A DNA stretch of 64,000 bases from a virus (IMGVR_UViG_3300032085_000337:1-64000); one strand, 5' to 3'. Counted from the first letter of the stretch, positions 1 to 38,963 are shown. A program made the numbers and translations. The notes: generated from the sequence alone by a model not told the origin.

Positions 1-99
1 GTGAACCGTGGGGCTACAGAAAACCGCCTCTGCGTCTACCGCATTGAACGTAACGAGGATGGTAGCAACCCTGAGATATTCGTGGAGGAAGCGTGATGA
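1..99 (+). repeat. Direct repeat copy 1 (matches 38865-38963)
   Basis: 1-91 identical to 38865-38955, one mismatch (C92 vs T38956), then GTGATGA identical; encodes the C-terminus of the 38598-38960 ORF. Confidence 0.95.
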
Positions 100-26869: not shown

Positions 26870-28647
26870 TCAAGAGGCTCCTCAGGGGCAGGCTGAAGCT
26901 CTTGTGAGCCTTGGTCAACCATCTCCTCTTGTTCAGCCTCAAACTCAATCTGAGCCTCTGTAGCAACCTTCTGAGTCTCCATCTGTTCACTGACAGATAC
27001 GTTCTCTTTGAAGAGTGCTGGCTCACCAAGTTCGTCTGCAAGGAGACGGGCAAACTCTTTGCCTGAAAGGTGGGCTGCTACTGTAGGATCAGAAGCTTTG
27101 ATCTGATACATTGTTGTGAGGTTCTGGACACGTTGAGCACGTTCAGCAAAGTGACGAGCACCCATTGGAACGATCTTACCATTGGCTTTGATATCGTCCC
27201 GTGTGATCTGTGTGAAGAAGTAAAGACCTGTGTCTTCATTCAAGACCTTAGCTGTATCCTCATAGTCCATGTTACGACGAGCAGTCTCAAGCATGGCGTT
27301 CAGGATAGGCTCAAGAAACACACGTTCAAAGTGGGCAGTCTTGTGTTGGAAGATACGACCAGCAGCTGTCATAAGCTGACCTACTTCAAAGGCTGTCTTC
27401 TCACCTGCACTACGGATACCCATAGCCTCACGAGGAGCACCTGCCATCATCTCCATCTTAGCTTCGATGTTCTGAATCTGGAAGTCTGCATTAAGTGCTG
27501 TACTGTCAGGTGCAAGGTAACCTACATCACCCTCATCGCCCAAGTAGATACGAGCATTAGGCTCGAAGTCGAAGTCCTCTACGTCACCCCTGATCTTAAG
27601 GACAGGGTAGGCAATCTGATCAAACACATCAGCCTTAAGGTTCTCAAGGTGATCAATGCGATACTGCATACCTACGAGGTTATCAAGTGGCCCCATGCTG
27701 TAGAGGTTGTCAGGGCGGTCTCGCCAGCCAACGTGGAAGATAGGATCACGACCAAGCCAAGAAGGGTTCTCTTCGTTTGACAGGACGTATGCACGGTCTA
27801 CAATAGTGATGATACGGTTGTTAAGGAGCTTACCCTCAACCTTGTCGTAGATGTCACCGTAGAAAGTAAGAACCTCTACGTAGTCTGATTCGTAGTAGTC
27901 TGTGAGAGAGGCAAAGCCATCAGCTACAAAACCCTCAGACTTGTTGATGTCTACTTCGTTACCTCTGGCAGAACCACGGTTGCCAAGCATCTTGTTGAAG
28001 ATGTCAGCCATGTAACCCTTTGATGAGTCATTCTCTACCATGCGTTGAATTTCACCCAAGGTAAGAACAGACCTAACGATCTTAGGTGTGTCCGAGAAAT
28101 TCGCAGCAAGAGGATTGAAACAGATATCGAAGGGAGAGATACGAACTACTTTAGGACCAACGTAGTTTACGATACGGTCACCGTCTTCATACTCAGTTAC
28201 TTTACGTCCAAAGTCTACAGTCGCAAAGCAGTTACCATACTGGATGTAGTCGTTAACTAGTTTACTCGTAGTGTTTACAAAGTCAGACTGACGTAGCTTG
28301 TTTTGCATATACGCCTGAATGATAGACCGTTTGATCTTAGTATCGGAATCAGCATCAGTAGCTTCAAAACGGAACCAACGCTTCTGAGGGAACAAAGCAG
28401 CAAAGTAGTTTGCGTGAAGGTTGTCAGCAATCTGAGTCAGCTTGGGGGTGGTTGTAGAGTTAGACCAAGGCAACTTGTTGTTAGATGTGGTACGAGTGTC
28501 CGTAGCATAGATATAGTTACGAAGCTCTTTCCACTCTTTAACCTTTTCAGAACGTGCATTGTTCCAAGAAGTCCAACGGTTAGCAATCTCCACAGCTAGG
28601 CTGTGAGGATCAATCATGCTTTCAATGTCAATAGTAGTGCCAGCCAT
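26866..28647 (-). CDS. Portal protein
   Basis: 593 aa, YGNCFA, RISPFDI, EKTAFEV; directly after TerL. Confidence 0.88.
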   Translation of the reverse strand: MAGTTIDIESMIDPHSLAVEIANRWTSWNNARSEKVKEWKELRNYIYATDTRTTSNNKLPWSNSTTTPKLTQIADNLHANYFAALFPQKRWFRFEATDADSDTKIKRSIIQAYMQNKLRQSDFVNTTSKLVNDYIQYGNCFATVDFGRKVTEYEDGDRIVNYVGPKVVRISPFDICFNPLAANFSDTPKIVRSVLTLGEIQRMVENDSSKGYMADIFNKMLGNRGSARGNEVDINKSEGFVADGFASLTDYYESDYVEVLTFYGDIYDKVEGKLLNNRIITIVDRAYVLSNEENPSWLGRDPIFHVGWRDRPDNLYSMGPLDNLVGMQYRIDHLENLKADVFDQIAYPVLKIRGDVEDFDFEPNARIYLGDEGDVGYLAPDSTALNADFQIQNIEAKMEMMAGAPREAMGIRSAGEKTAFEVGQLMTAAGRIFQHKTAHFERVFLEPILNAMLETARRNMDYEDTAKVLNEDTGLYFFTQITRDDIKANGKIVPMGARHFAERAQRVQNLTTMYQIKASDPTVAAHLSGKEFARLLADELGEPALFKENVSVSEQMETQKVATEAQIEFEAEQEEMVDQGSQELQPAPEEPLE

Positions 28648-28674
28648 TGTGACTCCTAGTCTAGCTATGTGTTA

Positions 28675-28703
28675 ATAATAACACACTGTGATATTTATGT
28701 CAA
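28675..28703 (-). promoter_or_regulatory. Sigma70-type promoter upstream of the portal gene
   Basis: Minus strand TTGACA-17 bp-TATTAT. Confidence 0.7.
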
Positions 28704-28706
28704 CAC

Positions 28707-30251
28707 TTAAAATGCAACACCACCGAATTTAGGGTGAAATACTACATTATTATCTTGACTTCTTTTTCTTTTTACTGCTGAACTAGGCTTAACGGCAACC
28801 TCAACGGCTGCAGCAAGACAGTCTTTACAGTCATCATGCGCTGGGTTGTAAGAGACAAGCTCCTCTTCCAGCACCTGACAGTTACCACCACGGTAGTGAT
28901 ACATCTGCAAGTTGTCATACCGAGGCTCAAGGATAGCAGCGATACGTTCTTCTTTAGAACCCTGATGTCTGTTAGGTCTGTGCTCATCAATCTTCAAAGC
29001 AAGACCATTAGGTTTGATGTAGTTGTCCTTGAGTTCAGAAACGATAGCTGACTGAGCAGCTGTACATTCAGCCCGTAACTTCCTAAAGTCCCAACGGTTA
29101 AGAAGGTCTAGGATGTGACGGAAGTACTCAGAAATCTTATCTGTCTTAAAGCGATCAATGTCCAAGACGTAGACGTTGTTCTCTGAGTCAACACCAATAA
29201 CTACGATAGCCGTATAGTCTGCTCGTTTACTGACAGAGTAAGCAAAGTCAACAGCTGCACTTACATTAAGTTTCTGCCCCTTGTAGAACCACTGACCGCC
29301 ATCTCTGGTGAGGTGTTTCTTATCATAGTACTGGAACTTCTCATAGGCGATAGGTTGACTGTCAGGGTCGGTAGGGTCATTGTAGTACTGTGCTCTGAAC
29401 TGAACACGGTCCAAGTACTGACCACGCTTCTTGGCAAGGATTTGTACATCAAAGCCAAAGAACTTACCGTCCTTACGGAGTTGACGAGGCCAGAGGAACT
29501 CCCCTGTACCATCACCGTTATCTTCTACAGCCTTCTCCATTACCTCGTAGATATTCTCTTTACCTACAAGCTCTCCCTCTTTGGAGTAGATATCCTCTTC
29601 CATACCCATCAAGTCTGAGTACAAGTCTTTAGGATGGTAACGTGTACCTACTACCCACTCCTGTGCTTCACTACCTTCGATAGACGAAAGCAGGGAGTAC
29701 TGAGACTTAACCTTGTTACGGCCTTCGTTTGTGTAGGCGTTCTCAAAAACAACAACGTCATCTAGGACGGCAATATCGCAGTGCATACCTGTAAGAGAGG
29801 TAGTAAGGCCACCTGTAAAGATAGAAGGGTCACGGATAGCTTCCTTCTTACGGTCTGGGTGATCAAGTGCAATCTCTGATGTAGTCCACTTCTCACGTTT
29901 ACTTTCATCCTTGTTGAGGTGATCAGGCCAGTACTTCTGGTGAATGTCTGACTCGAATATGTTCTTGATAAAGGATAGCTGCTTCTGTGCTAGGTTAGAT
30001 GTAGCAGAGATATACAGAACACGTAGGGTTGGGTTCTTGGTAAGCTCCCATGCAACCCTGTAAGCTACAAGGGCAGACTTACCGTGGTCACGAGGAAACA
30101 ACAAAAGCTGGTGAGACTTAGCATCCTGCCGAGTCCACCACTTACATACGTCTTCGTGACAACTTCCGAGAACACGTTGAGGAGCAACAAGCCTGATGAA
30201 TGTCACCAAGCTTGCCTCCGCAGCTTCTCTGATTTCGTGTATACTTGCCAT
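28707..30251 (-). CDS. terL: Terminase large subunit
   Basis: Walker A PRDHGKS, TGMHCD..VLDD, VGTRYH, nuclease VDFA..DYTA, HDDCKD. Confidence 0.93.
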   Translation of the reverse strand: MASIHEIREAAEASLVTFIRLVAPQRVLGSCHEDVCKWWTRQDAKSHQLLLFPRDHGKSALVAYRVAWELTKNPTLRVLYISATSNLAQKQLSFIKNIFESDIHQKYWPDHLNKDESKREKWTTSEIALDHPDRKKEAIRDPSIFTGGLTTSLTGMHCDIAVLDDVVVFENAYTNEGRNKVKSQYSLLSSIEGSEAQEWVVGTRYHPKDLYSDLMGMEEDIYSKEGELVGKENIYEVMEKAVEDNGDGTGEFLWPRQLRKDGKFFGFDVQILAKKRGQYLDRVQFRAQYYNDPTDPDSQPIAYEKFQYYDKKHLTRDGGQWFYKGQKLNVSAAVDFAYSVSKRADYTAIVVIGVDSENNVYVLDIDRFKTDKISEYFRHILDLLNRWDFRKLRAECTAAQSAIVSELKDNYIKPNGLALKIDEHRPNRHQGSKEERIAAILEPRYDNLQMYHYRGGNCQVLEEELVSYNPAHDDCKDCLAAAVEVAVKPSSAVKRKRSQDNNVVFHPKFGGVAF

Positions 30252-30252
30252 T

Positions 30253-30660
30253 CTACGTAGGGTTTCCAGCTGACCAAGAGGTTACAACAGATGTATTAAA
30301 GTAAGTAAGGTATTCATAAACACCAGTTGTACGAGATGTTGCTCTAGACGTTGATCTCCTTGTTGTTTGGTTCATCTCGTACGAGGGATTGTAGGTACTC
30401 CAGTATGTTGTCCAGTAAGTCAGATAGGATGTGCTCCAAGAAGTATTCCACCCAGAAGAAGTTTCTACAAAGGTTTGAAGGCTTGTCGTAGAAACTGTAG
30501 AATACAGATCACTCTTGTTATAAAAGTCTGAAAAAGATATAGGCCCAGAAGAAGGCAGGGACGGTGCTCCGTAGTACTCAGCCAAGGAGTGAGGAGGTGT
30601 ACCACTATACTCCGATGAAATCTCGTTTAGAGATAAAGTTCCAGATGTTTTAATAGTCAT
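30253..30660 (-). CDS. Small Thr/Ser-repeat protein, putative tail-fibre tip adhesin
   Basis: N-terminal SG.LSLNEI..EY.G..PHSL.EYYG..P.SG.ISFSDFY domain typical of proteins following S74 fibres; C-terminal xTS(W/Y/R) tetrapeptide repeats. Confidence 0.65.
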   Translation of the reverse strand: MTIKTSGTLSLNEISSEYSGTPPHSLAEYYGAPSLPSSGPISFSDFYNKSDLYSTVSTTSLQTFVETSSGWNTSWSTSYLTYWTTYWSTYNPSYEMNQTTRRSTSRATSRTTGVYEYLTYFNTSVVTSWSAGNPT

Positions 30661-30669
30661 GATTTCGTC

Positions 30670-31569
30670 CTACTTGTATGCGTCTTTCATAAGAGACCTG
30701 ACTTCGTGGATGTAGGCTATGTACTGCACAACTCTGTCTTGCCAATCTTGGTGTATCTCTGGGTGTACAAGACCTGATTGATAATTGGAGAGGAGTTTGT
30801 TGACAAGCTTCTTAGGTTCTAGTGAATTTATAAGTGGTTCGTTTATGTGTGAAAACCCGCAGAGGTTTCTCTCTTTGAAGTTAGTTAAAGGAGAAACACG
30901 TTTGCCTAAAGAAACAGCATTAATAATTGACTCACTATTATGCGATGCGTATACCACATCAACGTAAGGCATGATTGAGTAGATGTCGTCTTCTGGGGAA
31001 AGGATACTTGCACAGGGCAGTAACATTTCTTTCAGTTCCTGTAAGTTCTCTTTGTGGGTAAGAGGGTGAGGCTTAATAGCAGCAAGCTTCCCGTGCTCCT
31101 CAACAACCCACCGTAACTTTGGCACACTGGTAATCTTTGGAAAAATGTTTGATCCCGCAAGAACGGCTATAGCCTCATACCTACTAGTAGGTTTTGAGCC
31201 GCCTATGTGTGAGTACTTGTTTGCGGAACCTCCCATAACTCTATCTGACAGAAAACCTGTGTAATCAAATTTGTCTATCTTACTACTACACAAAGCATCC
31301 TGTACTTGTATTTGTTTTATCTCTTGTTGCAAAGGGTTTAACATAAAGAACCCAGCAAAGGATGTATAGTTTACTGTCCAAAACTGCAGAGGTTGAAAAG
31401 CGGTACAGTCGTAAGAACCTACACATGGGTAGTCTTTCAGTACTTCCAGCGTAAAAGCTTCTACAGGTTTTAAGATGTCAAGATCAGAAGTAAAGGAAAA
31501 AGTATTCCCTAAACGTAGCTCCATCTCTTTTTCATCAAACATTTTTCCTTCTGTTTCTAAATCAAGCAA
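30670..31569 (-). CDS. KpsC/KpsS-like (capsule biosynthesis) glycosyltransferase-fold protein
   Basis: IKPHP motif and VYASHNSESIINAVSLGKRV resemble the KxHP and T.NS..G.EA...GK.V motifs of CMP-sugar transferases. Confidence 0.55.
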   Translation of the reverse strand: MLDLETEGKMFDEKEMELRLGNTFSFTSDLDILKPVEAFTLEVLKDYPCVGSYDCTAFQPLQFWTVNYTSFAGFFMLNPLQQEIKQIQVQDALCSSKIDKFDYTGFLSDRVMGGSANKYSHIGGSKPTSRYEAIAVLAGSNIFPKITSVPKLRWVVEEHGKLAAIKPHPLTHKENLQELKEMLLPCASILSPEDDIYSIMPYVDVVYASHNSESIINAVSLGKRVSPLTNFKERNLCGFSHINEPLINSLEPKKLVNKLLSNYQSGLVHPEIHQDWQDRVVQYIAYIHEVRSLMKDAYK

Positions 31570-32089
31570 AAGGCATTACCCGCATTTCGTAACCCATGAA
31601 GTCGGTGTAACCTAGTAACTTTGTAGCAAGATTCTTTTCCCCTTGACCAGTAAGGAAAGAAACGGCGAGCTTGCTATAGCTGGGAACAACGGGCATCATA
31701 GCTTTGAAACCCTTAGAGGCTGCGGATTGTGTGACAAGGTCGTACATTTCTGTACCAATACCCTTTCCTCTGTGGGACTCCTTCACGGCAGTCATAAGCG
31801 TAACTACAAGCTCTGACTGTAGGTAACCTGCGTTGACAATAGCCTTTTGAAGTTCAGGATGAGTGTTCACGTAACCAGAACCAGAAGCGGTACGCCACAT
31901 ATGAGCACCTACAAGATTACCGTCCTCGTAAGCAAAGATAACCTCTGCTCCTAAATGTTTTGTACACTCATGTTCAAACATTACATCAAGGGGAACTGTA
32001 GCATCTGCATCCCCTTTAATAAAAGAAATAAGGTTTTCTTTTTCCGAACTAGACAAGGAATCGAGAAGTTGTTTTTTGTATTCAATCAT
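31562..32089 (-). CDS. GNAT acetyltransferase
   Basis: AYEDGNLVG; acetyl-CoA motif A AVKESHRGKGIGTEM. Confidence 0.8.
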   Translation of the reverse strand: MIEYKKQLLDSLSSSEKENLISFIKGDADATVPLDVMFEHECTKHLGAEVIFAYEDGNLVGAHMWRTASGSGYVNTHPELQKAIVNAGYLQSELVVTLMTAVKESHRGKGIGTEMYDLVTQSAASKGFKAMMPVVPSYSKLAVSFLTGQGEKNLATKLLGYTDFMGYEMRVMPFA

Positions 32090-32807
32090 TATTAGACCAC
32101 TCCAATCTTTTACAGATTAAGTCTTTTATTTCAAGAAGAGTATTTCTGTTACAGGAAAGACAGTCTCCACAGGCCTCTACGTGAGTACCTGTAAATATAG
32201 GAGTCCTACAACTGAAACACAAACGCATGTACTCTTTAGGTAAAGAAAGGTAGCTTTTAAAGAAGTCTCTATTCTCTGTATGCCAACTGAGTTTCACTTT
32301 CCCAAACGAGAGTGTGCGAACCATTTCCGAAAGAGCTTCTACTTGTTCTTCCTCGAAGTACTCTGACCTTTTAACAATCCCAGTATTTCTTAGAAAAGCT
32401 ACCATCAAATCTTCACCGATAACAATATACTTAAGATTATACTTCACGGCCATTTGAACGGATAGTAAAACAGGCATAAAGAAATCACGCATTACTCCTG
32501 AGTTAAAACGAGGGTCTATGTCTACACTAGATACAAAAAGCTCGACATCTCTTTGGATATGTTCTACTTGTTTTTTTACAAGGTGTTCTTCTACTTTGTG
32601 TCTTTCCCTAAGACTGGGTAAAAGTTTGACATGGTGTGCGTAGATAGTTCTATCGGTGACTACTCTACTATACTGCCATAAAACATATGCACTGTCTAAA
32701 CCCCCTGACAAAAGTAGAAGAGAGTCTACACCATTCTTAGCTTCTGAAAAAACTTCCTCGAAAGGTACAAAACCCGTAGGTACAAAACCATTCTTTTTAG
32801 GAATCAT
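32082..32807 (-). CDS. Divergent QueC-like PP-loop ATPase
   Basis: LLLSGGLDS PP-loop and C-terminal SC...CGDCLSC zinc cluster; lacks canonical QueC YGQ and VPxRN motifs. Confidence 0.7.
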   Translation of the reverse strand: MIPKKNGFVPTGFVPFEEVFSEAKNGVDSLLLLSGGLDSAYVLWQYSRVVTDRTIYAHHVKLLPSLRERHKVEEHLVKKQVEHIQRDVELFVSSVDIDPRFNSGVMRDFFMPVLLSVQMAVKYNLKYIVIGEDLMVAFLRNTGIVKRSEYFEEEQVEALSEMVRTLSFGKVKLSWHTENRDFFKSYLSLPKEYMRLCFSCRTPIFTGTHVEACGDCLSCNRNTLLEIKDLICKRLEWSNND

Positions 32808-32830
32808 AAAACAGACCTGACGCTTTTTGT

Positions 32831-34693
32831 TTACTCACTGGCTAGTACAGCTTTTAGTTCATCAATCTGCTCTTGCTGTTCTTTAACAGCTTCGATAAGC
32901 AAACCGACTATGTTGCCATAAGCTACTGACAGGTAATCACCACTCTCGTGTACTACCTCTGGGAGAACTTTTTGAACTTCTTGAGCAATAACACCGAGGC
33001 TATCCCTGCCATCTTTTTGGAAGGTAACACCACGGAGTTGCTTAACCTTGTCAACAGCTTCAGAAATAGTCTCAATTTCAGTCTTCAAGCGTTCATCTGA
33101 GAAGGCTGTTACATCACCTGTGGCCAGAATATTACCAGAGACATGTAGCTTTTCAGTGGGGCTTGATGTCCCAATCCCGACATTACCGCTGCTGTTGATG
33201 CGCATACGTTCTGTGGGACGAACATCAGAATTTTCTCTAGTGGAAAAAGTGAGTGCTTGCCTATATCCAGAGACGCTTTCTTGGTCCCAGCCAATCTCTG
33301 CCCCGTGAAAGTTCCAGCCTTCAGAAATACCAAAGCCAATATAGCCTTTACCCTGAACAGAGCCAGACCCGCCCTCTGTGTTGTAAAACAGTGCGGATGC
33401 AGTGTCGTTCACGCCTTCTGACACCATAAGCTTTGCGTCAGGCGAACTCGTACCAATCCCGACATTACCGCTGCTGTCGATGCGCATGCGTTCTGAGCCG
33501 TTGGTGCGGATTTTAACATTGTCTTGACCTACAACCTCAAGGCCGTCATCACCTCTGTTTAGCTGCAAGTAGTTACCATCGTCTGTAGCACTGTCGTGGT
33601 CTAGGTAAATACGGGGGTTGCCACCTGCCGAACCGAGGTCAACTTTAATGCTCCCTTTAACGTGTAGGCTTTCTTCAGGCAAATTCGTGCCAATCCCAAC
33701 CTTATTTCCTGTCGCATCCACATACAGCGTGTTTGTGTCCACAGTCAGCCCAGCAAACGTAGGGCTGTCATTGGGCTGCACGGCACTGTCAGCCAGTGTA
33801 CCTTGTGCTGCTGTAGCATAGTCAGTAGAAGCTGTAGTAGCAGCTGTACCAAGACCAAGGTTAGTACGAGCAGTAGCTGGGCTTGTTAGGTCTGAAAGGT
33901 TGTTAGTTGAAACAAGATCACCAGATGCTGCATTAGCTGTAACCTGCCAAGTTGTGCCGTTATAAACGTAGAGCAATTCGGTGCTTGAGTTAAAGTAGAT
34001 AGCACCTACAACAAGGGCATCACCGTCATCGTCTACAGTTGGGTCAGAAGCCTTAACACCTAGGTAACGATCATCAAACGAGTCCAAGGCTGCAAGGGCT
34101 GCGTCTCGTGCTGTCTCTGCCCCAGTCTTAGCTGTTTCAGCTTCCGTGGCTGACGTAGCTGCATTGGTTGCGGAGGTAGCAGCTTCAGATGCCTTCGTAG
34201 AGGCCGTAGAAGCACTAGTAGAGGCGTTAGTCTCAGAAGTGGCTGCGTTGATAGCCGAAGTAACAGCATTGCTCTCAGATGTACCTGCGTTAGTCTCTGC
34301 TAGTTCGGCAGCAGTCCGTGCAGTCTGGGCAGCTGTAGCACTTGTAGCAGCAGCCGTAGCTGACAAACCAGCAGCAGTCTCAGAAACTTCAGCATTAGTT
34401 TCAGCTGTCTCAGCATTGTTCTCAGCCAACTCAGCCGCAGCCTGTGCAACCAAAGCAGCAGCCTTAGCAGCCTCTACATCGGCAAGGTAGTCAGTCCCGT
34501 TGATAAGTAAACCAGTAGCACCAATAATGTTATTACCATTAAGGTCTAGGTCTGCCTCCATAGCATTAGGAGTACTGCCATCCAAAGACAGAGTGTTATC
34601 GAAAGCATCTCGTAGAGCTTCGAAGTTTTCATTCAACACCTCAGTGGAGTTAAACCCTGACTGTAGTGTAGTTACTGTTGGTTTCTTAGCCAT
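32831..34693 (-). CDS. Tail fibre with C-terminal peptidase S74 intramolecular chaperone
   Basis: Ala/Thr/Glu-rich coiled shaft, GNVGIGT repeats, SDERLKTEI...GVIAQEV...LLIEAVKE. Confidence 0.9.
   Translation of the reverse strand: MAKKPTVTTLQSGFNSTEVLNENFEALRDAFDNTLSLDGSTPNAMEADLDLNGNNIIGATGLLINGTDYLADVEAAKAAALVAQAAAELAENNAETAETNAEVSETAAGLSATAAATSATAAQTARTAAELAETNAGTSESNAVTSAINAATSETNASTSASTASTKASEAATSATNAATSATEAETAKTGAETARDAALAALDSFDDRYLGVKASDPTVDDDGDALVVGAIYFNSSTELLYVYNGTTWQVTANAASGDLVSTNNLSDLTSPATARTNLGLGTAATTASTDYATAAQGTLADSAVQPNDSPTFAGLTVDTNTLYVDATGNKVGIGTNLPEESLHVKGSIKVDLGSAGGNPRIYLDHDSATDDGNYLQLNRGDDGLEVVGQDNVKIRTNGSERMRIDSSGNVGIGTSSPDAKLMVSEGVNDTASALFYNTEGGSGSVQGKGYIGFGISEGWNFHGAEIGWDQESVSGYRQALTFSTRENSDVRPTERMRINSSGNVGIGTSSPTEKLHVSGNILATGDVTAFSDERLKTEIETISEAVDKVKQLRGVTFQKDGRDSLGVIAQEVQKVLPEVVHESGDYLSVAYGNIVGLLIEAVKEQQEQIDELKAVLASE
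33171..33495. repeat. 43-bp in-frame direct repeat inside the tail fibre gene
   Basis: 33171-33213 vs 33453-33495, two mismatches, 282 bp apart; encodes ERMRI(D/N)SSGNVGIG. Confidence 0.85.
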
Positions 34694-34694
34694 G

Positions 34695-35186
34695 TTAGTT
34701 CATCAACCCAATTCGTGTTGCATCATCTTCTGTTTCGGCTTTTTCAAGAGCAGCCTGTTTCAGAGCACCATCAAGTTCATCCTTAGATGGTCTACCCCGT
34801 TTCTTACTTCCATTATCCAAGTAACCAGCATCAGCCAAGTACTTCTGAGCATTGTAACTTGCCTTACCTTCTTCAAGATCATTGATCATGTTTCTGATGG
34901 TACGAGCCTTCAACTTCAACATTAACTCTTTCTGCATCTGTACATGGTGTGTCTTAAACCATGAAAGGTTACACAAGTTCTCCCAAACAGAGTAATCACC
35001 AAACACAGATAGAGCAAACTCATACTCTGTAGGGTCTTCCATTTCAATGTAAATCTTATGCAGTGACAGGTAAGTCTTATCACCTACCTTATGGTCTTTC
35101 TTCTTTAAAGAGTAGTTTGTAAACTCATTACGAGTGTCTGGAAGTGTAGTCTCGTAGAACCACATCTTACTAGGTTTCTTAGCCAT
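34695..35186 (-). CDS. First late gene, possible terminase small subunit
   Basis: 163 aa, KRGRPSK motif, first gene of the late arm; assignment is positional. Confidence 0.5.
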   Translation of the reverse strand: MAKKPSKMWFYETTLPDTRNEFTNYSLKKKDHKVGDKTYLSLHKIYIEMEDPTEYEFALSVFGDYSVWENLCNLSWFKTHHVQMQKELMLKLKARTIRNMINDLEEGKASYNAQKYLADAGYLDNGSKKRGRPSKDELDGALKQAALEKAETEDDATRIGLMN

Positions 35187-35306
35187 GTCTCTGTTTGTTC
35201 CTTTACTATAAGAAAGGGGATAAAGGAGTTACCTGTCAATGTAACAGGTCATCCTTTCACTCTCCCTCTTACAAGTGTATATAGGCAGGGGAGACTTGTT
35301 AAGACT

Positions 35307-35335
35307 ATTATACACATACGTATTTGGGATGTCAA
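35307..35335 (-). promoter_or_regulatory. Sigma70 consensus late promoter sharing a 32-bp block with the 24802-24833 promoter
   Basis: Minus strand TTGACA-17 bp-TATAAT; 35285-35316 identical to 24802-24833. Confidence 0.85.
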
Positions 35336-35919
35336 GTATTAATTTACCTAACTATGAAATTAACTGGATTATGTGACTATGTTACCTACTCTTGTTACCT
35401 AAGGTGTCTAGAATTTCTGCTAGTAAATATTTTTGTGTGTTGTACATACAGTAGGCCACCCCCTATCCCCCCTTCCTCCCCCTAAGACTGTTGCATAATT
35501 ATCACATGGGGGTGTCATTCCTGCCACGGTGTTGCCTGATTGTGACACCTGTTGTCTCTAGGTTACATGTTCATTGATGTGTTACAGGTTATCTTGGTGG
35601 ATATGTTATAATGTAACACTATTGTTGGGGTGTTATAACTAGACTAACCCCCACACCTTCTAACACATTGGAAAGATTACATAACTAGGTTACCTAACTA
35701 CATAACTTTTTCTTCCCATTATAAGGAGTATGCATAGGGCTATAAATTAATTTCTAATCAGGTGCATTTTCTTGTTGCTTTCTGTTTTTGTATCGGTCTA
35801 TAAATATTCATCGGCAAGCAAACACCGACACAAACGAGATACCAACGTCACTGAGTCAACCTGAGCTACTGAGCAAGCCCTAGCAAGCAAGAGGGGCAAG
35901 AGACTAAAACAAAAGACTG

Positions 35920-38601: not shown

Positions 38602-38960
38602 CTAATCGTAAATTTACACCGCCAACAGAGTTCCCCGCAGAGTATGTCGATGGGTTTGGGTGTAAGGTCACTATCTTGGGGCGTTCTTATTACAACAAAG
38701 AGAGACCTCTGGTAGGTTTTGATGACGAGGGCTGCGCCTGTAATTACGCAGAAAACGGGGCTTATTGGCCTGATGATGGGGGTAAATATGACCTTCACGA
38801 CATCCAAAAGCGCATCACAACGTGGCACAACGTCTACGAGGGTTGGGTCGGGGCTTCAAATAAAGTGAACCGTGGGGCTACAGAAAACCGCCTCTGCGTC
38901 TACCGCATTGAACGTAACGAGGATGGTAGCAACCCTGAGATATTCGTGGAGGAAGTGTGA
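38598..38960 (+). CDS. Hypothetical protein whose 3' end forms the junction repeat
   Basis: AAAGGAG RBS, ATGA overlap with thyX; last ~30 codons repeated at the window start. Confidence 0.7.
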   Translation: MTNRKFTPPTEFPAEYVDGFGCKVTILGRSYYNKERPLVGFDDEGCACNYAENGAYWPDDGGKYDLHDIQKRITTWHNVYEGWVGASNKVNRGATENRLCVYRIERNEDGSNPEIFVEEV

Positions 38961-38963
38961 TGA
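38865..38963 (+). repeat. Direct repeat copy 2 (matches 1-99); junction between phage 1 and phage 2
   Basis: See 1-99; sequences diverge completely after 38963. Confidence 0.95.

What the first reader, a model, noticed from the sequence alone, without database searches (positions are those of the whole stretch)
30253..32807. Candidate phage system for post-translational decoration of a tail-tip protein: QueC-like + GNAT + KpsC/S-like transferase + Thr/Ser-repeat substrate
Seen: four tightly packed genes (two 8-bp overlaps, 9-bp and 1-bp gaps), AT-richer by eye than their flanks, sit between the S74 tail fibre and terL. They encode a PP-loop SGGLDS/zinc-cluster enzyme, an acetyltransferase, a KPHP-motif glycosyltransferase-like protein and a 135-aa protein with a fibre-associated N-domain and a hydroxyl-rich tail. 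No folE, queD, queE or dpdA is present. Established: KpsC/KpsS are CMP-Kdo transferases with an HP motif; PP-loop enzymes adenylate carboxylates to form amides or nitriles, and QueC-family proteins in type IV CBASS and Qat defence systems modify proteins. Inference: the three enzymes build and tailor a glycan or other adduct on the small tip protein, a leader/core-like logic that could set host range, shield the virion or mimic the host surface. Modification of the host cell surface for superinfection exclusion is an alternative.
Basis: partly seen in the sequence, partly recalled or inferred. Interest (0 to 1): 0.85.

Follow-up and report, generated by a model that had tools for sequence, protein, structure and literature searches.

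The report
Phage sugar-transferase paired with Thr/Ser-repeat fibre protein
A marine roseobacter phage carries, beside its tail fibre gene, a sugar-adding enzyme that in many phages sits next to a small fibre-type protein made of threonine/serine repeats, which suggests that these phages sugar-coat a tail-tip protein.

Summary
Four tightly packed minus-strand genes (30253-32807), GC 0.405 against 0.456 for the phage, lie between the S74 tail fibre and terL of a SIO1/ICBM1-like Siovirus. This slot is already described as variable.

The 290/299-aa protein folds like the beta-Kdo transferases KpsC/WbbB (Z 10.7-11.1) and keeps an invariant K-x-H-P CMP-binding motif. It lacks their QXXXD nucleophile motif.

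The 241-aa protein has a QueC/Cap9 fold (Z 15.8/14.0), with the PP-loop and Cys cluster but not the canonical QueC substrate motifs. No deazaguanine pathway genes are present. The 175-aa protein is a GNAT.

The 135-aa protein joins an N-domain, shared with glycine-rich fibre-tip proteins, to a Thr/Ser tail with 4-residue periodicity.

New here: the transferase sits beside a Thr/Ser-repeat protein in 14 of 14 viral loci, and in the cultured phages Caulobacter Quill_5.2 and Vibrio KVP40. The QueC-like and GNAT genes are facultative, but all four recur in a different order in an unrelated phage.

Best reading (about 0.45): O-glycosylation of the repeat protein with a host-derived CMP-activated acid sugar, tailored by the other two enzymes. 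No chemistry is shown.

The parts
32831..34693 (-). Tail fibre (620 aa) with a C-terminal Peptidase_S74 intramolecular chaperone domain. It forms the upstream boundary of the cassette.
   Evidence: Pfam PF13884, 1e-15, residues 532-582. Many PHROG tail-fibre families match. About 90-94% nucleotide identity to the fibres of ICBM1, P12053L and SIO1.
32082..32807 (-). QueC/Cap9-fold PP-loop ATPase (241 aa) of a divergent branch found mostly in viruses. It is a putative ATP-dependent carboxylate-activating amide-forming enzyme; its substrate is unknown.
   Evidence: SGGLDS and the Cys cluster C197xxC200-x12-C213xxC216xxC219 are invariant in 9 sequences. Model pLDDT 82.3. VIA Z 15.8 to Cap9 (9nto_B) and 14.0 to B. 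subtilis QueC (3bl5). PADLOC QueC 1.3e-4 over residues 28-226. Pfam QueC scores 17.6 bits, below the 22-bit cut-off. The Atlas nearest clusters score 0.94-0.96; all are QueC-domain clusters and 96-100% viral.
31562..32089 (-). GNAT acetyltransferase (175 aa).
   Evidence: PF00583, 6.2e-7, 30.1 bits against a 20.7-bit cut-off. Only 5 close homologues were found. Three of their longest-contig lengths (2595, 3673, 22890) equal those listed for transferase homologues.
30670..31569 (-). GT-B glycosyltransferase-like protein (299 aa from TTG; more likely 290 aa from the ATG at 31542). It has the KpsC/WbbB fold and the CMP-binding K-x-H-P motif. It belongs to a large family that has no Pfam model.
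   Evidence: phrog_26179 (unknown function), 1.6e-20. Model pLDDT 85.8. Foldseek top hits are WbbB, KrkA and KpsC at 2.5e-5 to 1.3e-4. VIA Z 11.1 to KpsC 8fux (rmsd 3.7, 222 aligned). The wide search puts KpsC at Z 10.7 and 10.1 and WbbB at 9.4, and only 6 of 48,161 chains reach Z 8. K157, H159 and P160 are invariant in 127 family members.
30511..30660 (-). N-domain (about residues 1-50) of the 135-aa protein. It is shared with glycine-rich fibre-tip-type proteins and is a putative docking module.
   Evidence: An HMM built from 5 N-domains hits ICBM1 gp50 (3.8e-12), which holds the same terL-proximal position. It also hits OLIVR5 gp116 (2.5e-15), which directly follows a tail fibre gene, and the L024 344-aa protein (3e-23). 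ICBM1 gp50 and the L024 protein carry PF21722 Gly_rich_2. The Atlas structural neighbours include GP38 adhesin and Gly_rich_2 clusters, but the Atlas model has pLDDT of only 0.50, so this is a lead only.
30253..30510 (-). Thr/Ser/aromatic-rich tail (about residues 51-135) with 4-residue Thr periodicity and a conserved C-terminal W-x-x-x-N-P-T. It is the putative acceptor of the transferase.
   Evidence: 53% Ser+Thr in the best 40-aa window. Thr-Thr spacing at lags 4 and 8 is 2.67 and 2.3 times expectation, and lag 2 is 0. The C-terminal WSAGNPT, WSADNPT, WAASNPT and WSDGNPT are aligned in 4 homologues.
28707..30251 (-). Large terminase; the downstream boundary of the variable slot.
   Evidence: phrog_38, 5.7e-93. 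About 90% nucleotide identity to ICBM1 and P12053L.

Best explanation
The conserved core is a two-gene module: a CMP-sugar-dependent GT-B glycosyltransferase and a fibre-type protein built of Thr/Ser tetrad repeats (T-[TS]-S-x, where x is aromatic or basic).

Proposed mechanism (inferred). In the infected cell the transferase binds a CMP-activated acidic sugar taken from the host pool. CMP-Kdo is the most economical candidate, because every Gram-negative host makes it for LPS (recalled). CMP-nonulosonic acids are the alternative. Binding would be through the invariant K-x-H-P and S-E motifs, and the sugar would be transferred to Thr/Ser hydroxyls of the repeat tail. The Asp nucleophile motif QXXXD of retaining Kdo transferases is missing. 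The chemistry is therefore more likely direct and sialyltransferase-like than double displacement.

The modified protein would then dock on the tail fibre through its N-domain, which it shares with glycine-rich fibre-tip proteins. This would give the fibre a glycan-coated tip that affects adsorption or shields the virion.

The QueC-like PP-loop enzyme would activate a carboxylate with ATP and convert it to an amide. The carboxylate of the acid sugar is the candidate at hand. The GNAT would acetylate an amine. Both are optional tailoring enzymes.

Shown here: the folds, the motifs and the gene linkage. Inferred: the donor, the acceptor, the chemistry and the virion location.
For: 1. Fold. The model (pLDDT 85.8) matches beta-Kdo transferases best. 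Foldseek's top hits are WbbB, KrkA and KpsC. The top 14 rows are all Kdo transferases, at Z 11.1 down to 9.1. An independent scan of 48,161 chains ranks KpsC, KpsC and WbbB first, followed by a polysialyltransferase.

2. Motifs. K157-x-H159-P160 is invariant in 127 of 127 members, and E204 is at least 90% conserved. The passages read in PMC12887879 describe (K/R)XHP as the CMP-binding motif shared by sialyltransferases and retaining Kdo transferases. In KrkA, Ser-Ser about 44 residues after the His and a Glu about 49 residues after it bind the CMP phosphate and ribose. Here S203 and E204 lie 44 and 45 residues after H159.

3. Weak sequence links, all to CMP-acid-sugar transferases. Of 127 members, 9 hit PF07388 polysialyltransferase (best 2.3e-4) and 5 hit PF05159 Capsule_synth (best 1e-3). 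The KVP40 homologue hits GT52 at 5e-4.

4. Linkage. In each of 14 of 14 IMG/VR loci found with the transferase profile, exactly one ORF has a 40-aa window with at least 50% Ser+Thr. That is 14 of 571 ORFs of 60 aa or more. In every locus this ORF is adjacent to the transferase or separated from it by one small gene. The same holds in metagenome locus L034 (0.68), in Caulobacter phage Quill_5.2 gp041/gp042 (0.53) and in Vibrio phage KVP40 .0254/.0256 (0.70, with the same N-domain at 2.5e-9).

5. The repeat proteins share Thr periodicity: lags 4 and 8 are enriched 2.2-3.3 times and lag 2 is depleted to 0.3 or less in 9 of 12.

6. The four-gene set recurs in the same order in L025. It recurs in a different order (GT, QueC-like, small protein, GNAT) in the unrelated L008-type phage.

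7. None of 9 transferase-bearing viral records encodes a CMP-sugar synthetase (PF02348). The donor would therefore have to come from the host.

8. Precedent. Glycans on mycobacteriophage capsid and tail-tube C-termini are cited in a passage of PMC12619734.
Against: No call shows any modification, and none shows that the small protein is in virions.

Known relatives by fold (KpsC, KpsS, WbbB, KrkA) act on glycolipid or glycan acceptors, not on proteins (passages of PMC12887879, and recall).

The QXXXD motif is absent, so catalysis cannot simply be copied from those enzymes. No residue-level superposition could be made.

The window protein itself has no Pfam, NCBIfam or PDB sequence match.

Loci are not independent. 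L008, L009, L021, L022, L037 and L038 are one phage type; L012-14 are another and L015-16 another. That leaves about 10 distinct IMG/VR types.

In Caulobacter phage Cr30 the neighbour gp254 is Thr/Tyr-rich but reaches only 0.35 on the Ser+Thr measure.

In KVP40 the module does not lie in an annotated fibre module.

QueC-like genes also occur in fibre modules without the transferase or the N-domain protein (L020 type, L023/L039 type), so their role need not concern a glycan.

Gene adjacency to a fibre-type protein could reflect a shared host-interaction module rather than an enzyme-substrate pair.
Confidence: 0.45

Rival explanations
1. The transferase modifies a host envelope glycan (LPS or capsule) during infection, for superinfection exclusion or to stop progeny sticking to debris. 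The Thr/Ser-repeat proteins are ordinary unmodified fibre parts that merely share the host-interaction module.
For: All solved relatives by fold act on glycolipid or glycan acceptors (titles; passages of PMC12887879). The cassette lies in a slot described as variable and devoted to fibres (passage of PMC6775973). It has lower GC than its flanks, as acquired accessory genes often do.
Against: The transferase is adjacent to exactly the one Ser/Thr-rich ORF in 14 of 14 loci. These loci come from podovirus-like, myovirus-like and T4-like contexts, which is hard to explain by module sharing alone. The phage looks lytic, since it is Siovirus-like. The 290-aa protein has no membrane segment or signal peptide visible in its sequence or in the model's secondary structure. 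This was judged by eye and no predictor was run.
Confidence: 0.2
2. The QueC-like enzyme is a Cap9/QatC-type protein ligase. It uses ATP to join a carboxylated small molecule (7-carboxy-7-deazaguanine from the host, or another acid) to the N-terminus of the N-domain protein or of a fibre protein, independently of any glycosylation.
For: Cap9 is the best structural match (Z 15.8, rmsd 2.6, 167 aligned). Cap9 and QatC ligate carboxy-deazaguanine to partner N-termini without carrying their own queD/queE (Results of PMC13329287 read). Among the QueC-like contexts that are neither duplicates nor too short to read, 7 hold the N-domain protein close by: window, L025, L034, L008 type, L036, L026 and L024. 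Two do not: the L020 type and the L023/L039 type. The N-terminus of the N-domain is conserved (M-[TA]-[IL]-[KQ]-[TS]-x-G).
Against: According to PMC13329287, Cap9 keeps the canonical QueC substrate motifs. Judged by spacing from the PP-loop, this family has H58-H59, M-R-D-F-F and G-E-D where Y-x-Q-x-H-x-x-E, V-P-x-R-N and Y-P-D-C would lie (no structural alignment was available). No CD-NTase or Qat partner genes were seen among the four proteins scanned.
Confidence: 0.15
3. RiPP-like logic. The small protein is a precursor whose N-domain acts as a leader for the enzymes. Its Thr/Ser core is chemically rewritten into a product that is not a virion part.
For: The layout is a conserved N-part, a hypervariable repeat core and a conserved C-terminal Trp. 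The tailoring enzymes vary from locus to locus. In KVP40 the module is followed by a QueC-family protein, an NAPRTase-like protein and two radical SAM proteins.
Against: The same N-domain heads glycine-rich fibre-tip-type proteins that have no such enzymes next to them (ICBM1 gp50, OLIVR5 gp116). In L012-L017 the repeats belong to proteins of 425-656 aa. No protease or exporter is conserved across the loci.
Confidence: 0.07
4. The transferase-like protein is a non-catalytic fibre assembly factor, and the repeats are purely structural.
For: In L012, L015 and L017 a small ORF of 163-183 aa lies between the repeat protein and the transferase. Its position resembles that of fibre assembly genes (recalled; Pfam found no family for the L012 and L017 ORFs).
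Against: The strictly invariant positions are K-x-H-P, at the place of the nucleotide-binding motif, with E204 at least 90% conserved, in 127 members that share only 21% mean column identity. That is the pattern of a working active site.
Confidence: 0.05

Closest known systems
Retaining beta-Kdo glycosyltransferases KpsC/KpsS (GT107), WbbB (GT99) and KrkA (GT140)
   Same: They are the best structural matches (Z 10.7-11.1). They share the (K/R)XHP CMP-binding motif, and Ser/Glu lie at the spacing of KrkA's phosphate and ribose ligands. Like them, this enzyme would draw on the host CMP-Kdo pool.
   Different: There is no QXXXD motif, so no Asp nucleophile. The window protein does not match Pfam Capsule_synth. 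It is a stand-alone 290-aa protein encoded by phages next to a repeat protein. The known enzymes act on glycolipids or glycans.
Bacterial sialyltransferase-type HP-motif GT-B enzymes (GT38 polysialyltransferase, GT52, GT80)
   Same: The same (K/R)XHP motif. A polysialyltransferase is the next-best fold match (Z 9.1-9.2 over the C-domain). The most frequent weak Pfam hits in the family are PF07388 and, for KVP40, PF07922. These enzymes need no Asp nucleophile (recalled).
   Different: Only the C-terminal domain aligns well. All hits are below the curated cut-offs.
Cap9 (type IV CBASS) and QatC (QatABCD): QueC-family protein ligases
   Same: They share the fold with the 241-aa protein (Z 15.8 and 11.3), the PP-loop and a C-terminal Cys cluster. 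Like the window phage, these systems work without their own queD/queE.
   Different: Here the gene is phage-encoded in a fibre module, with no CD-NTase or QatA/B/D. The substrate-pocket motifs match neither Cap9 and canonical QueC nor the motifs listed for QatC.
Mycobacteriophage virion glycosylation (Freeman et al. 2023)
   Same: Phage-encoded glycosyltransferases decorate virion proteins. This is known here only from a passage of PMC12619734. The paper itself is not held.
   Different: There the targets are the capsid and tail-tube C-termini in actinobacteriophages. The type of transferase in that work was not seen in any call. Here the candidate acceptor is a dedicated repeat protein with a fibre-docking N-domain, in phages of Gram-negative hosts, and no glycan has been shown.
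Dedicated adhesin glycosylation in bacteria: serine-rich repeat adhesins with GtfA/B, and AIDA-I/TibA with the heptosyltransferases Aah/TibC (recalled; not tested here)
   Same: The logic is the same: a repeat-rich adhesin encoded next to its own transferase. In the AIDA-I case the transferase draws on an LPS precursor sugar.
   Different: The enzyme families, donors and organisms differ.
T-even Gp38-type and Gly_rich_2 fibre-tip proteins
   Same: The N-domain of the 135-aa protein is homologous to the N-termini of PF21722 glycine-rich proteins that follow fibre genes. The Atlas gives GP38 and Gly_rich_2 clusters as structural neighbours (lead only).
   Different: The glycine-rich receptor-binding domain is replaced by Thr/Ser tetrad repeats.

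Membership tests
Retaining beta-Kdo transferases (GT99/GT107/GT140; Pfam PF05159 for KpsC/KpsS) | Modified GT-B fold like KpsC/WbbB | tested here: met
   VIA Z 11.1 (8fux_A, rmsd 3.7, 222 aligned) and 10.5 (8csb_B). KpsC, KpsC and WbbB rank 1-3 of 48,161 chains.
Retaining beta-Kdo transferases (GT99/GT107/GT140; Pfam PF05159 for KpsC/KpsS) | (K/R)XHP CMP-binding motif | tested here: met
   K157, H159 and P160 are invariant in 127 of 127 aligned members. The motif is defined in passages of PMC12887879.
Retaining beta-Kdo transferases (GT99/GT107/GT140; Pfam PF05159 for KpsC/KpsS) | QXXXD motif with the nucleophilic Asp in the C-terminal domain | tested here: not met
   No Gln is conserved in at least 90% of the 127 members, and the only Asp conserved at that level is D45, in the N-domain. 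The stretch about 27 residues before the His reads L-P-G-S-N (G130 and N132 at least 90% conserved). This was judged from sequence conservation and spacing; no residue-level superposition was possible.
Retaining beta-Kdo transferases (GT99/GT107/GT140; Pfam PF05159 for KpsC/KpsS) | Match to the Pfam Capsule_synth model | tested here: not met
   The window protein has no Pfam hit. There is no PF05159 match in the record. Five of 127 relatives hit weakly (best 1e-3).
Retaining beta-Kdo transferases (GT99/GT107/GT140; Pfam PF05159 for KpsC/KpsS) | Transfer of Kdo from CMP-beta-Kdo | not testable with these tools
   This needs an enzyme assay or mass spectrometry.
Sialyltransferase-type HP-motif GT-B (GT38/GT52/GT80) | (K/R)XHP plus a downstream Ser/Glu nucleotide-binding site | tested here: inconclusive
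   KPHP is invariant. S203 and E204 lie 44 and 45 residues after H159. Only E204 is at least 90% conserved in the 127 members. The comparison with KrkA's Ser271, Ser272 and Glu276 is by spacing only.
Sialyltransferase-type HP-motif GT-B (GT38/GT52/GT80) | Match to family models (PF07388, PF07922) | tested here: inconclusive
   Nine of 127 relatives hit PF07388 (best 2.3e-4). The KVP40 homologue hits PF07922 at 5e-4 with 19.8 bits, below the 26.1-bit cut-off. The window protein itself has no hit.
QueC family (PF06508) | SGGxDS PP-loop | tested here: met
   S34-G-G-L-D-S39 is invariant in 9 sequences.
QueC family (PF06508) | C-terminal zinc-type Cys cluster C(x)8CxxCxxC | tested here: inconclusive
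   A variant form is present: C200-x12-C213-xx-C216-xx-C219, plus C197, all invariant. The motif is as given in PMC13329287. Metal binding was not tested.
QueC family (PF06508) | QueC fold | tested here: met
   Z 15.8 to Cap9 and 14.0 and 13.1 to QueC structures, aligned out to residues 225-227.
QueC family (PF06508) | Score above Pfam's gathering threshold | tested here: not met
   The window protein scores 17.6 bits against 22. Four of 8 more distant relatives pass, at 23.2-32.1 bits.
Canonical QueC (preQ0 synthase) | Catalytic signature YxQxHxxE, VPxRN, YPDC | tested here: not met
   By spacing from the PP-loop, the family has H58-H59-V-K, M106-R-D-F-F and G131-E-D133 at those places (compared with the motifs). 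No structure-based alignment was available.
Canonical QueC (preQ0 synthase) | Context with queD, queE, folE or a TGT/DpdA gene | tested here: not met
   None was found in the 73-kb record. The control genomes gave matches in each of these searches.
Cap9/QatC protein-deazaguanylating ligases | Partner genes (CD-NTase, or QatA/QatB/QatD) | tested here: not met
   PADLOC gave only a QueC model hit among the four cassette proteins. The neighbours are the fibre, the GNAT, the transferase and terL. NCBIfam QatC matched 1 of 9 members, at E 0.39.
GNAT acetyltransferases (PF00583) | Match above the Pfam cut-off | tested here: met
   30.1 bits against 20.7.
Gly_rich_2 / Gp38-type fibre-tip proteins | Glycine-rich domain PF21722 | tested here: not met
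   The 135-aa protein has no Pfam hit. Only its N-domain is shared with the PF21722 proteins ICBM1 gp50 and the L024 344-aa protein.

The most novel reading that the evidence does not exclude
Many tailed phages of Gram-negative hosts may build a mucin-like tail-fibre tip. These would include roseobacter sioviruses, Caulobacter podophages and Cr30, Vibrio KVP40-like phages and many uncultured marine phages. A dedicated protein of Thr/Ser tetrad repeats would be densely O-glycosylated by a new family of CMP-acid-sugar protein glycosyltransferases using the host's LPS precursor pool. In some phages the sugar carboxylates would then be amidated or otherwise capped by a virus-specific QueC-fold ligase and a GNAT. 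That would be a phage-made, tunable glycan brush governing adsorption. It would also be the first protein O-glycosyltransferase of the KpsC/sialyltransferase HP-motif class.
Probability: 0.2. Interest if true: 0.9.

Novelty: new variant of a known kind. Interest (0 to 1): 0.7.

Why it matters
If the pair is enzyme and substrate, phage virion glycosylation would extend beyond actinobacteriophages. It would reach abundant marine phages and model phages of Gram-negative bacteria (KVP40, Cr30, Lullwater-like phages).

It would also give a function to a large unannotated protein family. That family has 300 representatives at E up to 0.001 in a library clustered at 50% identity, no Pfam model, and a PHROG labelled 'unknown function'.

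It would define a recognisable acceptor sequence type, the Thr/Ser tetrad repeats.

It would show a further use of the QueC scaffold. The 2026 survey of the family (Results of PMC13329287 read) does not describe a fibre-module group among its major clusters.

A glycan-tipped fibre would bear on host range and on how phages avoid or exploit surface recognition. The hypothesis is directly testable in a harmless laboratory host, Caulobacter vibrioides CB15.

Tried and rejected
- **Sequence searches of the transferase.** Searches against Pfam, NCBIfam, PADLOC and PDB sequences, both as a single protein and as a profile, gave nothing usable.
- **Single-protein searches in phage collections.** The single-protein scan of viral contigs found no relative. 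tblastn of the window's QueC-like protein against 50,697 phage records found nothing. tblastn of the window's transferase found one record.
- **Complex prediction.** A job with the QueC-like protein (alignment A2) and the small protein (alignment A5) returned 'no answer' with score 0.00. It is no evidence either way.
- **Bacterial genomes.** The scan with A1 found no relative. A3 and A6 were too diverse for that tool. Relatives cannot be drawn for a virus record. Whether the family occurs in bacterial genomes or prophages is therefore untested, except that one viral record (G008, holding L018) is classed as a provirus.
- **KVP40.0258.** hhalign of KVP40.0258 (annotated QueC-like) against A2 gave only 27.5% probability over 22 columns. 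I do not count it as the same subfamily. It does pass Pfam QueC at 36.9 bits. KVP40-like phages are also reported to carry a separate deazaguanine DNA-modification cluster (passage of PMC12028318), so its adjacency may have another meaning.
- **Sugar amidotransferase idea.** I considered that the QueC-like enzyme is an N-acetyl-sugar amidotransferase (WbuX/PseA type). Four of 9 members hit TIGR03573, but at best 4.6e-4 against a 203-bit cut-off. This is a lead only.
- **The fibre as acceptor.** I considered the S74 fibre's own Ser/Thr/Ala-rich segment (0.47) as the acceptor. I set this aside as less likely than the dedicated repeat protein; it is not excluded.
- **Literature.** The full-text searches found no description of this gene pair. 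The paper on Lullwater-like Caulobacter phages contains 0 occurrences of 'glycosyl' and 'threonine'.

Full report
**What the window is.** The window is bases 1-64000 of a 73,002-base IMG/VR virus record. Bases 28000-35500 match the Siovirus roseophages ICBM1, P12053L and SIO1 at about 89-94% identity. The match covers only the portal, terL, fibre and downstream parts; the stretch between terL and the fibre does not match. In ICBM1 this slot holds a different set of genes: two fibre assembly proteins, a second fibre, and hypothetical proteins gp50, gp51 and gp55. [quoted passage not shown] The finding therefore lies in a known hypervariable host-interaction slot.

**The observation.** One caveat applies. 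The transferase more likely starts at the ATG at 31542 (290 aa) than at the TTG at 31569, and that removes one of the two 8-bp overlaps. The cassette has GC 0.405, against 0.486 for the fibre, 0.457 for terL and 0.456 for the phage genome. No QueD, TGT/DpdA, radical SAM or credible FolE gene is present in the record.

**The transferase.** Sequence libraries gave nothing except phrog_26179, 'unknown function'. An AlphaFold model built on 15 homologues is confident (pLDDT 85.8, pTM 0.86).

- Foldseek's top PDB hits are WbbB, KrkA and KpsC, at 2.5e-5 to 1.3e-4.
- The VIA second look gives Z 11.1-9.1 for 14 Kdo-transferase entries before the first other protein, a polysialyltransferase at 9.1.
- The Foldseek-independent scan of 48,161 chains ranks KpsC, KpsC and WbbB first. 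Only 6 chains reach Z 8.

A profile search of 1.84 billion representatives shows a large family: 300 hits at E up to 0.001 and 188 at E up to 1e-10. In 127 full-length members with 21% mean column identity, the only invariant residues are K157, H159 and P160. Residues D45, Y59, K109, Y110, G130, N132, E204, K214, S256 and G257 are at least 90% conserved.

The KrkA paper (passages) states that (K/R)XHP is the CMP-binding motif of both sialyltransferases and retaining Kdo transferases. It states that downstream Ser-Ser and Glu bind the CMP phosphate and ribose. It also states that retaining Kdo transferases need a QXXXD motif, whose Asp forms the covalent Kdo adduct. This family has the first motif, and Ser/Glu at the right spacing for the second feature, but it lacks QXXXD: L-P-G-S-N stands there. 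Weak Pfam hits in the family go to polysialyltransferase (9 of 127), Capsule_synth (5 of 127) and, for the KVP40 homologue, GT52. I conclude that it is a CMP-acid-sugar GT-B enzyme with a KpsC-like fold. It is not a member of the retaining Kdo transferase families, and it probably uses a different catalytic mechanism.

**The small protein.** Residues 1 to about 50 form a domain whose HMM finds three proteins:

- ICBM1 gp50, in the same terL-proximal position;
- a 344-aa protein in L024;
- Agrobacterium phage OLIVR5 gp116, which directly follows a fibre gene.

ICBM1 gp50 and the L024 protein carry the Gly_rich_2 domain. The Atlas lists GP38 adhesin and Gly_rich_2 clusters among its structural neighbours, but on a poor model, so this is a lead only. 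The N-domain thus heads interchangeable distal modules of fibre-type proteins.

In the window phage the distal module is a Thr/Ser/aromatic tail. Its Thr residues recur every fourth position and never every second. It ends in a conserved W-x-x-x-N-P-T.

**The linkage, which is the main new result.** A transferase profile fetched 14 IMG/VR loci. In each of the 14, exactly one ORF of at least 60 aa has a 40-aa window with 50% or more Ser+Thr. That is 14 of 571 ORFs. This ORF lies next to the transferase:

- directly downstream in L006 and L007;
- downstream with the QueC-like gene between in L008 and L009;
- directly upstream in L010, L011, L018 and L019;
- upstream with one 163-183-aa ORF between in L012-L017.

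These are about 10 distinct phage types, not 14. They include a myovirus-like tail module (L006) and T4-like contexts (L012, L015).

In the window, 1 of 201 ORFs passes the same Ser+Thr threshold. None passes it in the gene maps printed for the QueC-only loci (L020, L023, L024, L027-L033, L039).

Cultured phages show the same pairing:

- Caulobacter phage Quill_5.2: fibre gp040, repeat protein gp041 (0.53), transferase gp042.
- tblastn with gp042 finds 45 phage records: 9 Caulobacter, 35 Vibrio (KVP40-like) and 1 Stenotrophomonas.
- KVP40: gene .0254 has the same N-domain (2.5e-9) and T-T-S-x repeats (0.70). It lies two genes before the transferase .0256.
- Cr30: a 116-aa Thr/Tyr-rich protein that reaches only 0.35 on the Ser+Thr measure. 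It precedes the transferase and follows a fibre-like protein.

**The QueC-like protein and the GNAT.** The QueC-like model (pLDDT 82.3) matches Cap9 (Z 15.8) and QueC (Z 14.0 and 13.1) best. It stands above generic PP-loop enzymes at about 12 and QatC at 11.3. The family keeps SGGLDS and a variant Cys cluster. Judged by spacing, it lacks the Y-x-Q-x-H-x-x-E, V-P-x-R-N and Y-P-D-C motifs that the 2026 survey shows to be essential in QueC and retained in Cap9.

The Atlas's nearest clusters are all virus-dominated QueC-domain clusters. Among 8 more distant relatives from fetched loci, 7 have QueC as their best Pfam hit and 4 score above the cut-off.

Context of the QueC-like gene:

- L025: same four genes in the same order as the window.
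- L034: fibre, QueC-like, transferase, repeat protein.
- L008 type: transferase, QueC-like, repeat protein, GNAT (PF00583, 21.7 bits).
- L026: QueC-like, N-domain protein, one further gene, GNAT (34.4 bits).
- L024: the glycine-rich N-domain protein, one gene, then QueC-like.
- Two types, L020 and L023/L039, have a QueC-like gene in a fibre module without either partner.

The two enzymes are therefore facultative. They are linked to fibre modules in general and to the N-domain protein in most cases. All four genes recur in two gene orders, which argues for a functional set.

**Mechanism.** The best-supported reading is O-glycosylation of the repeat tail by the transferase, with a CMP-activated acid sugar from the host. 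None of 9 transferase-bearing viral records encodes a CMP-sugar synthetase. The QueC-like enzyme (carboxylate activation and amide formation, the chemistry common to the family) and the GNAT would be optional tailoring steps. The donor, the acceptor, the chemistry and the virion location are all inferences, and I put the whole reading at about 0.45. The main rivals are:

- action of the transferase on host glycans (0.2);
- a Cap9-like N-terminal protein ligation by the QueC-like enzyme (0.15, and not exclusive of the best reading);
- RiPP-like processing (0.07);
- a non-catalytic assembly role (0.05).

**Comparison with what is known, and novelty.** Glycosylation of phage virion proteins is known from mycobacteriophages (passage of PMC12619734; the source paper is not held). 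Dedicated adhesin glycosylation is known in bacteria (recalled). The following appear undescribed:

- this transferase family;
- the tetrad-repeat protein type;
- their strict pairing across phage groups;
- the fibre-module QueC-like branch.

This rests on the searches, the passages, and the Results of PMC13329287. I rate the finding a new variant of a known kind and of high but unproven interest. It can be tested directly in Caulobacter phages.

Noticed in passing
window 1-99 and 38865-38963; window 38964-64000: A 99-nt direct repeat (98.99% identical) brackets a 38,963-bp unit that looks like a complete Siovirus genome with terminal repeats. The rest of the window encodes a different set of genes, including primase/helicase-like, DNA-polymerase-like and tape-measure-like ORFs as judged by eye from their N-terminal sequences. 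It has no second copy of the terL, portal, fibre or cassette genes. The 73-kb record may be a join of two phages.
   Followed up: partly
L043 (Vibrio phage KVP40, record 131224-137161): In KVP40 the repeat protein (.0254) and the transferase (.0256) are followed by several further genes. These are a 210-aa protein, a QueC-family protein with a degenerate PP-loop (.0258; Pfam QueC 36.9 bits), an NAPRTase-like protein (.0259) and two radical SAM proteins (.0260.0261). Whether these belong with the pair or with the phage's deazaguanine DNA-modification genes is open.
   Followed up: partly
L007 2821-4140; L008 10745-12070; L024 7741-8700: Phage contigs that carry the cassette also encode a TctA-family tricarboxylate transporter membrane protein (PF01970; 203 and 218 bits) a few genes downstream. 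L024 has a weak TctC-like receptor match (21.6 bits, below the cut-off). A carboxylate importer beside a carboxylate-activating enzyme may not be a coincidence.
   Followed up: partly
L012 6301-6813; L015 5472-6023; L017 6387-6878; L018 7762-8418: A small ORF of 163-218 aa, with related N-terminal sequences (M-L-Y-A/L-R/K-I/L-N...), lies beside the repeat protein and the transferase in the more distant loci. It sits between them in L012, L015 and L017, and directly after the transferase in L018. Its position resembles that of fibre assembly genes (recalled). Pfam found no family for the L012 and L017 ORFs.
   Followed up: partly
L011, L012, L015, L017, L019 and Quill_5.2 gp041 (N-termini of the repeat proteins): Repeat proteins that lack the fibre-tip N-domain instead begin with a shared basic motif (…R-R-L/W-L…G-G…) before the repeats. 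Many repeat proteins end in an aromatic residue or Trp near the C-terminus. These look like two alternative head modules for the same kind of tail.
   Followed up: no
window 34695-35186: The 163-aa gene upstream of the fibre (phrog_8035, unknown function; 1.7e-55) is also AT-rich (GC 0.398). It is conserved in ICBM1 as gp57. It carries a weak AT-hook match near its C-terminus.
   Followed up: no
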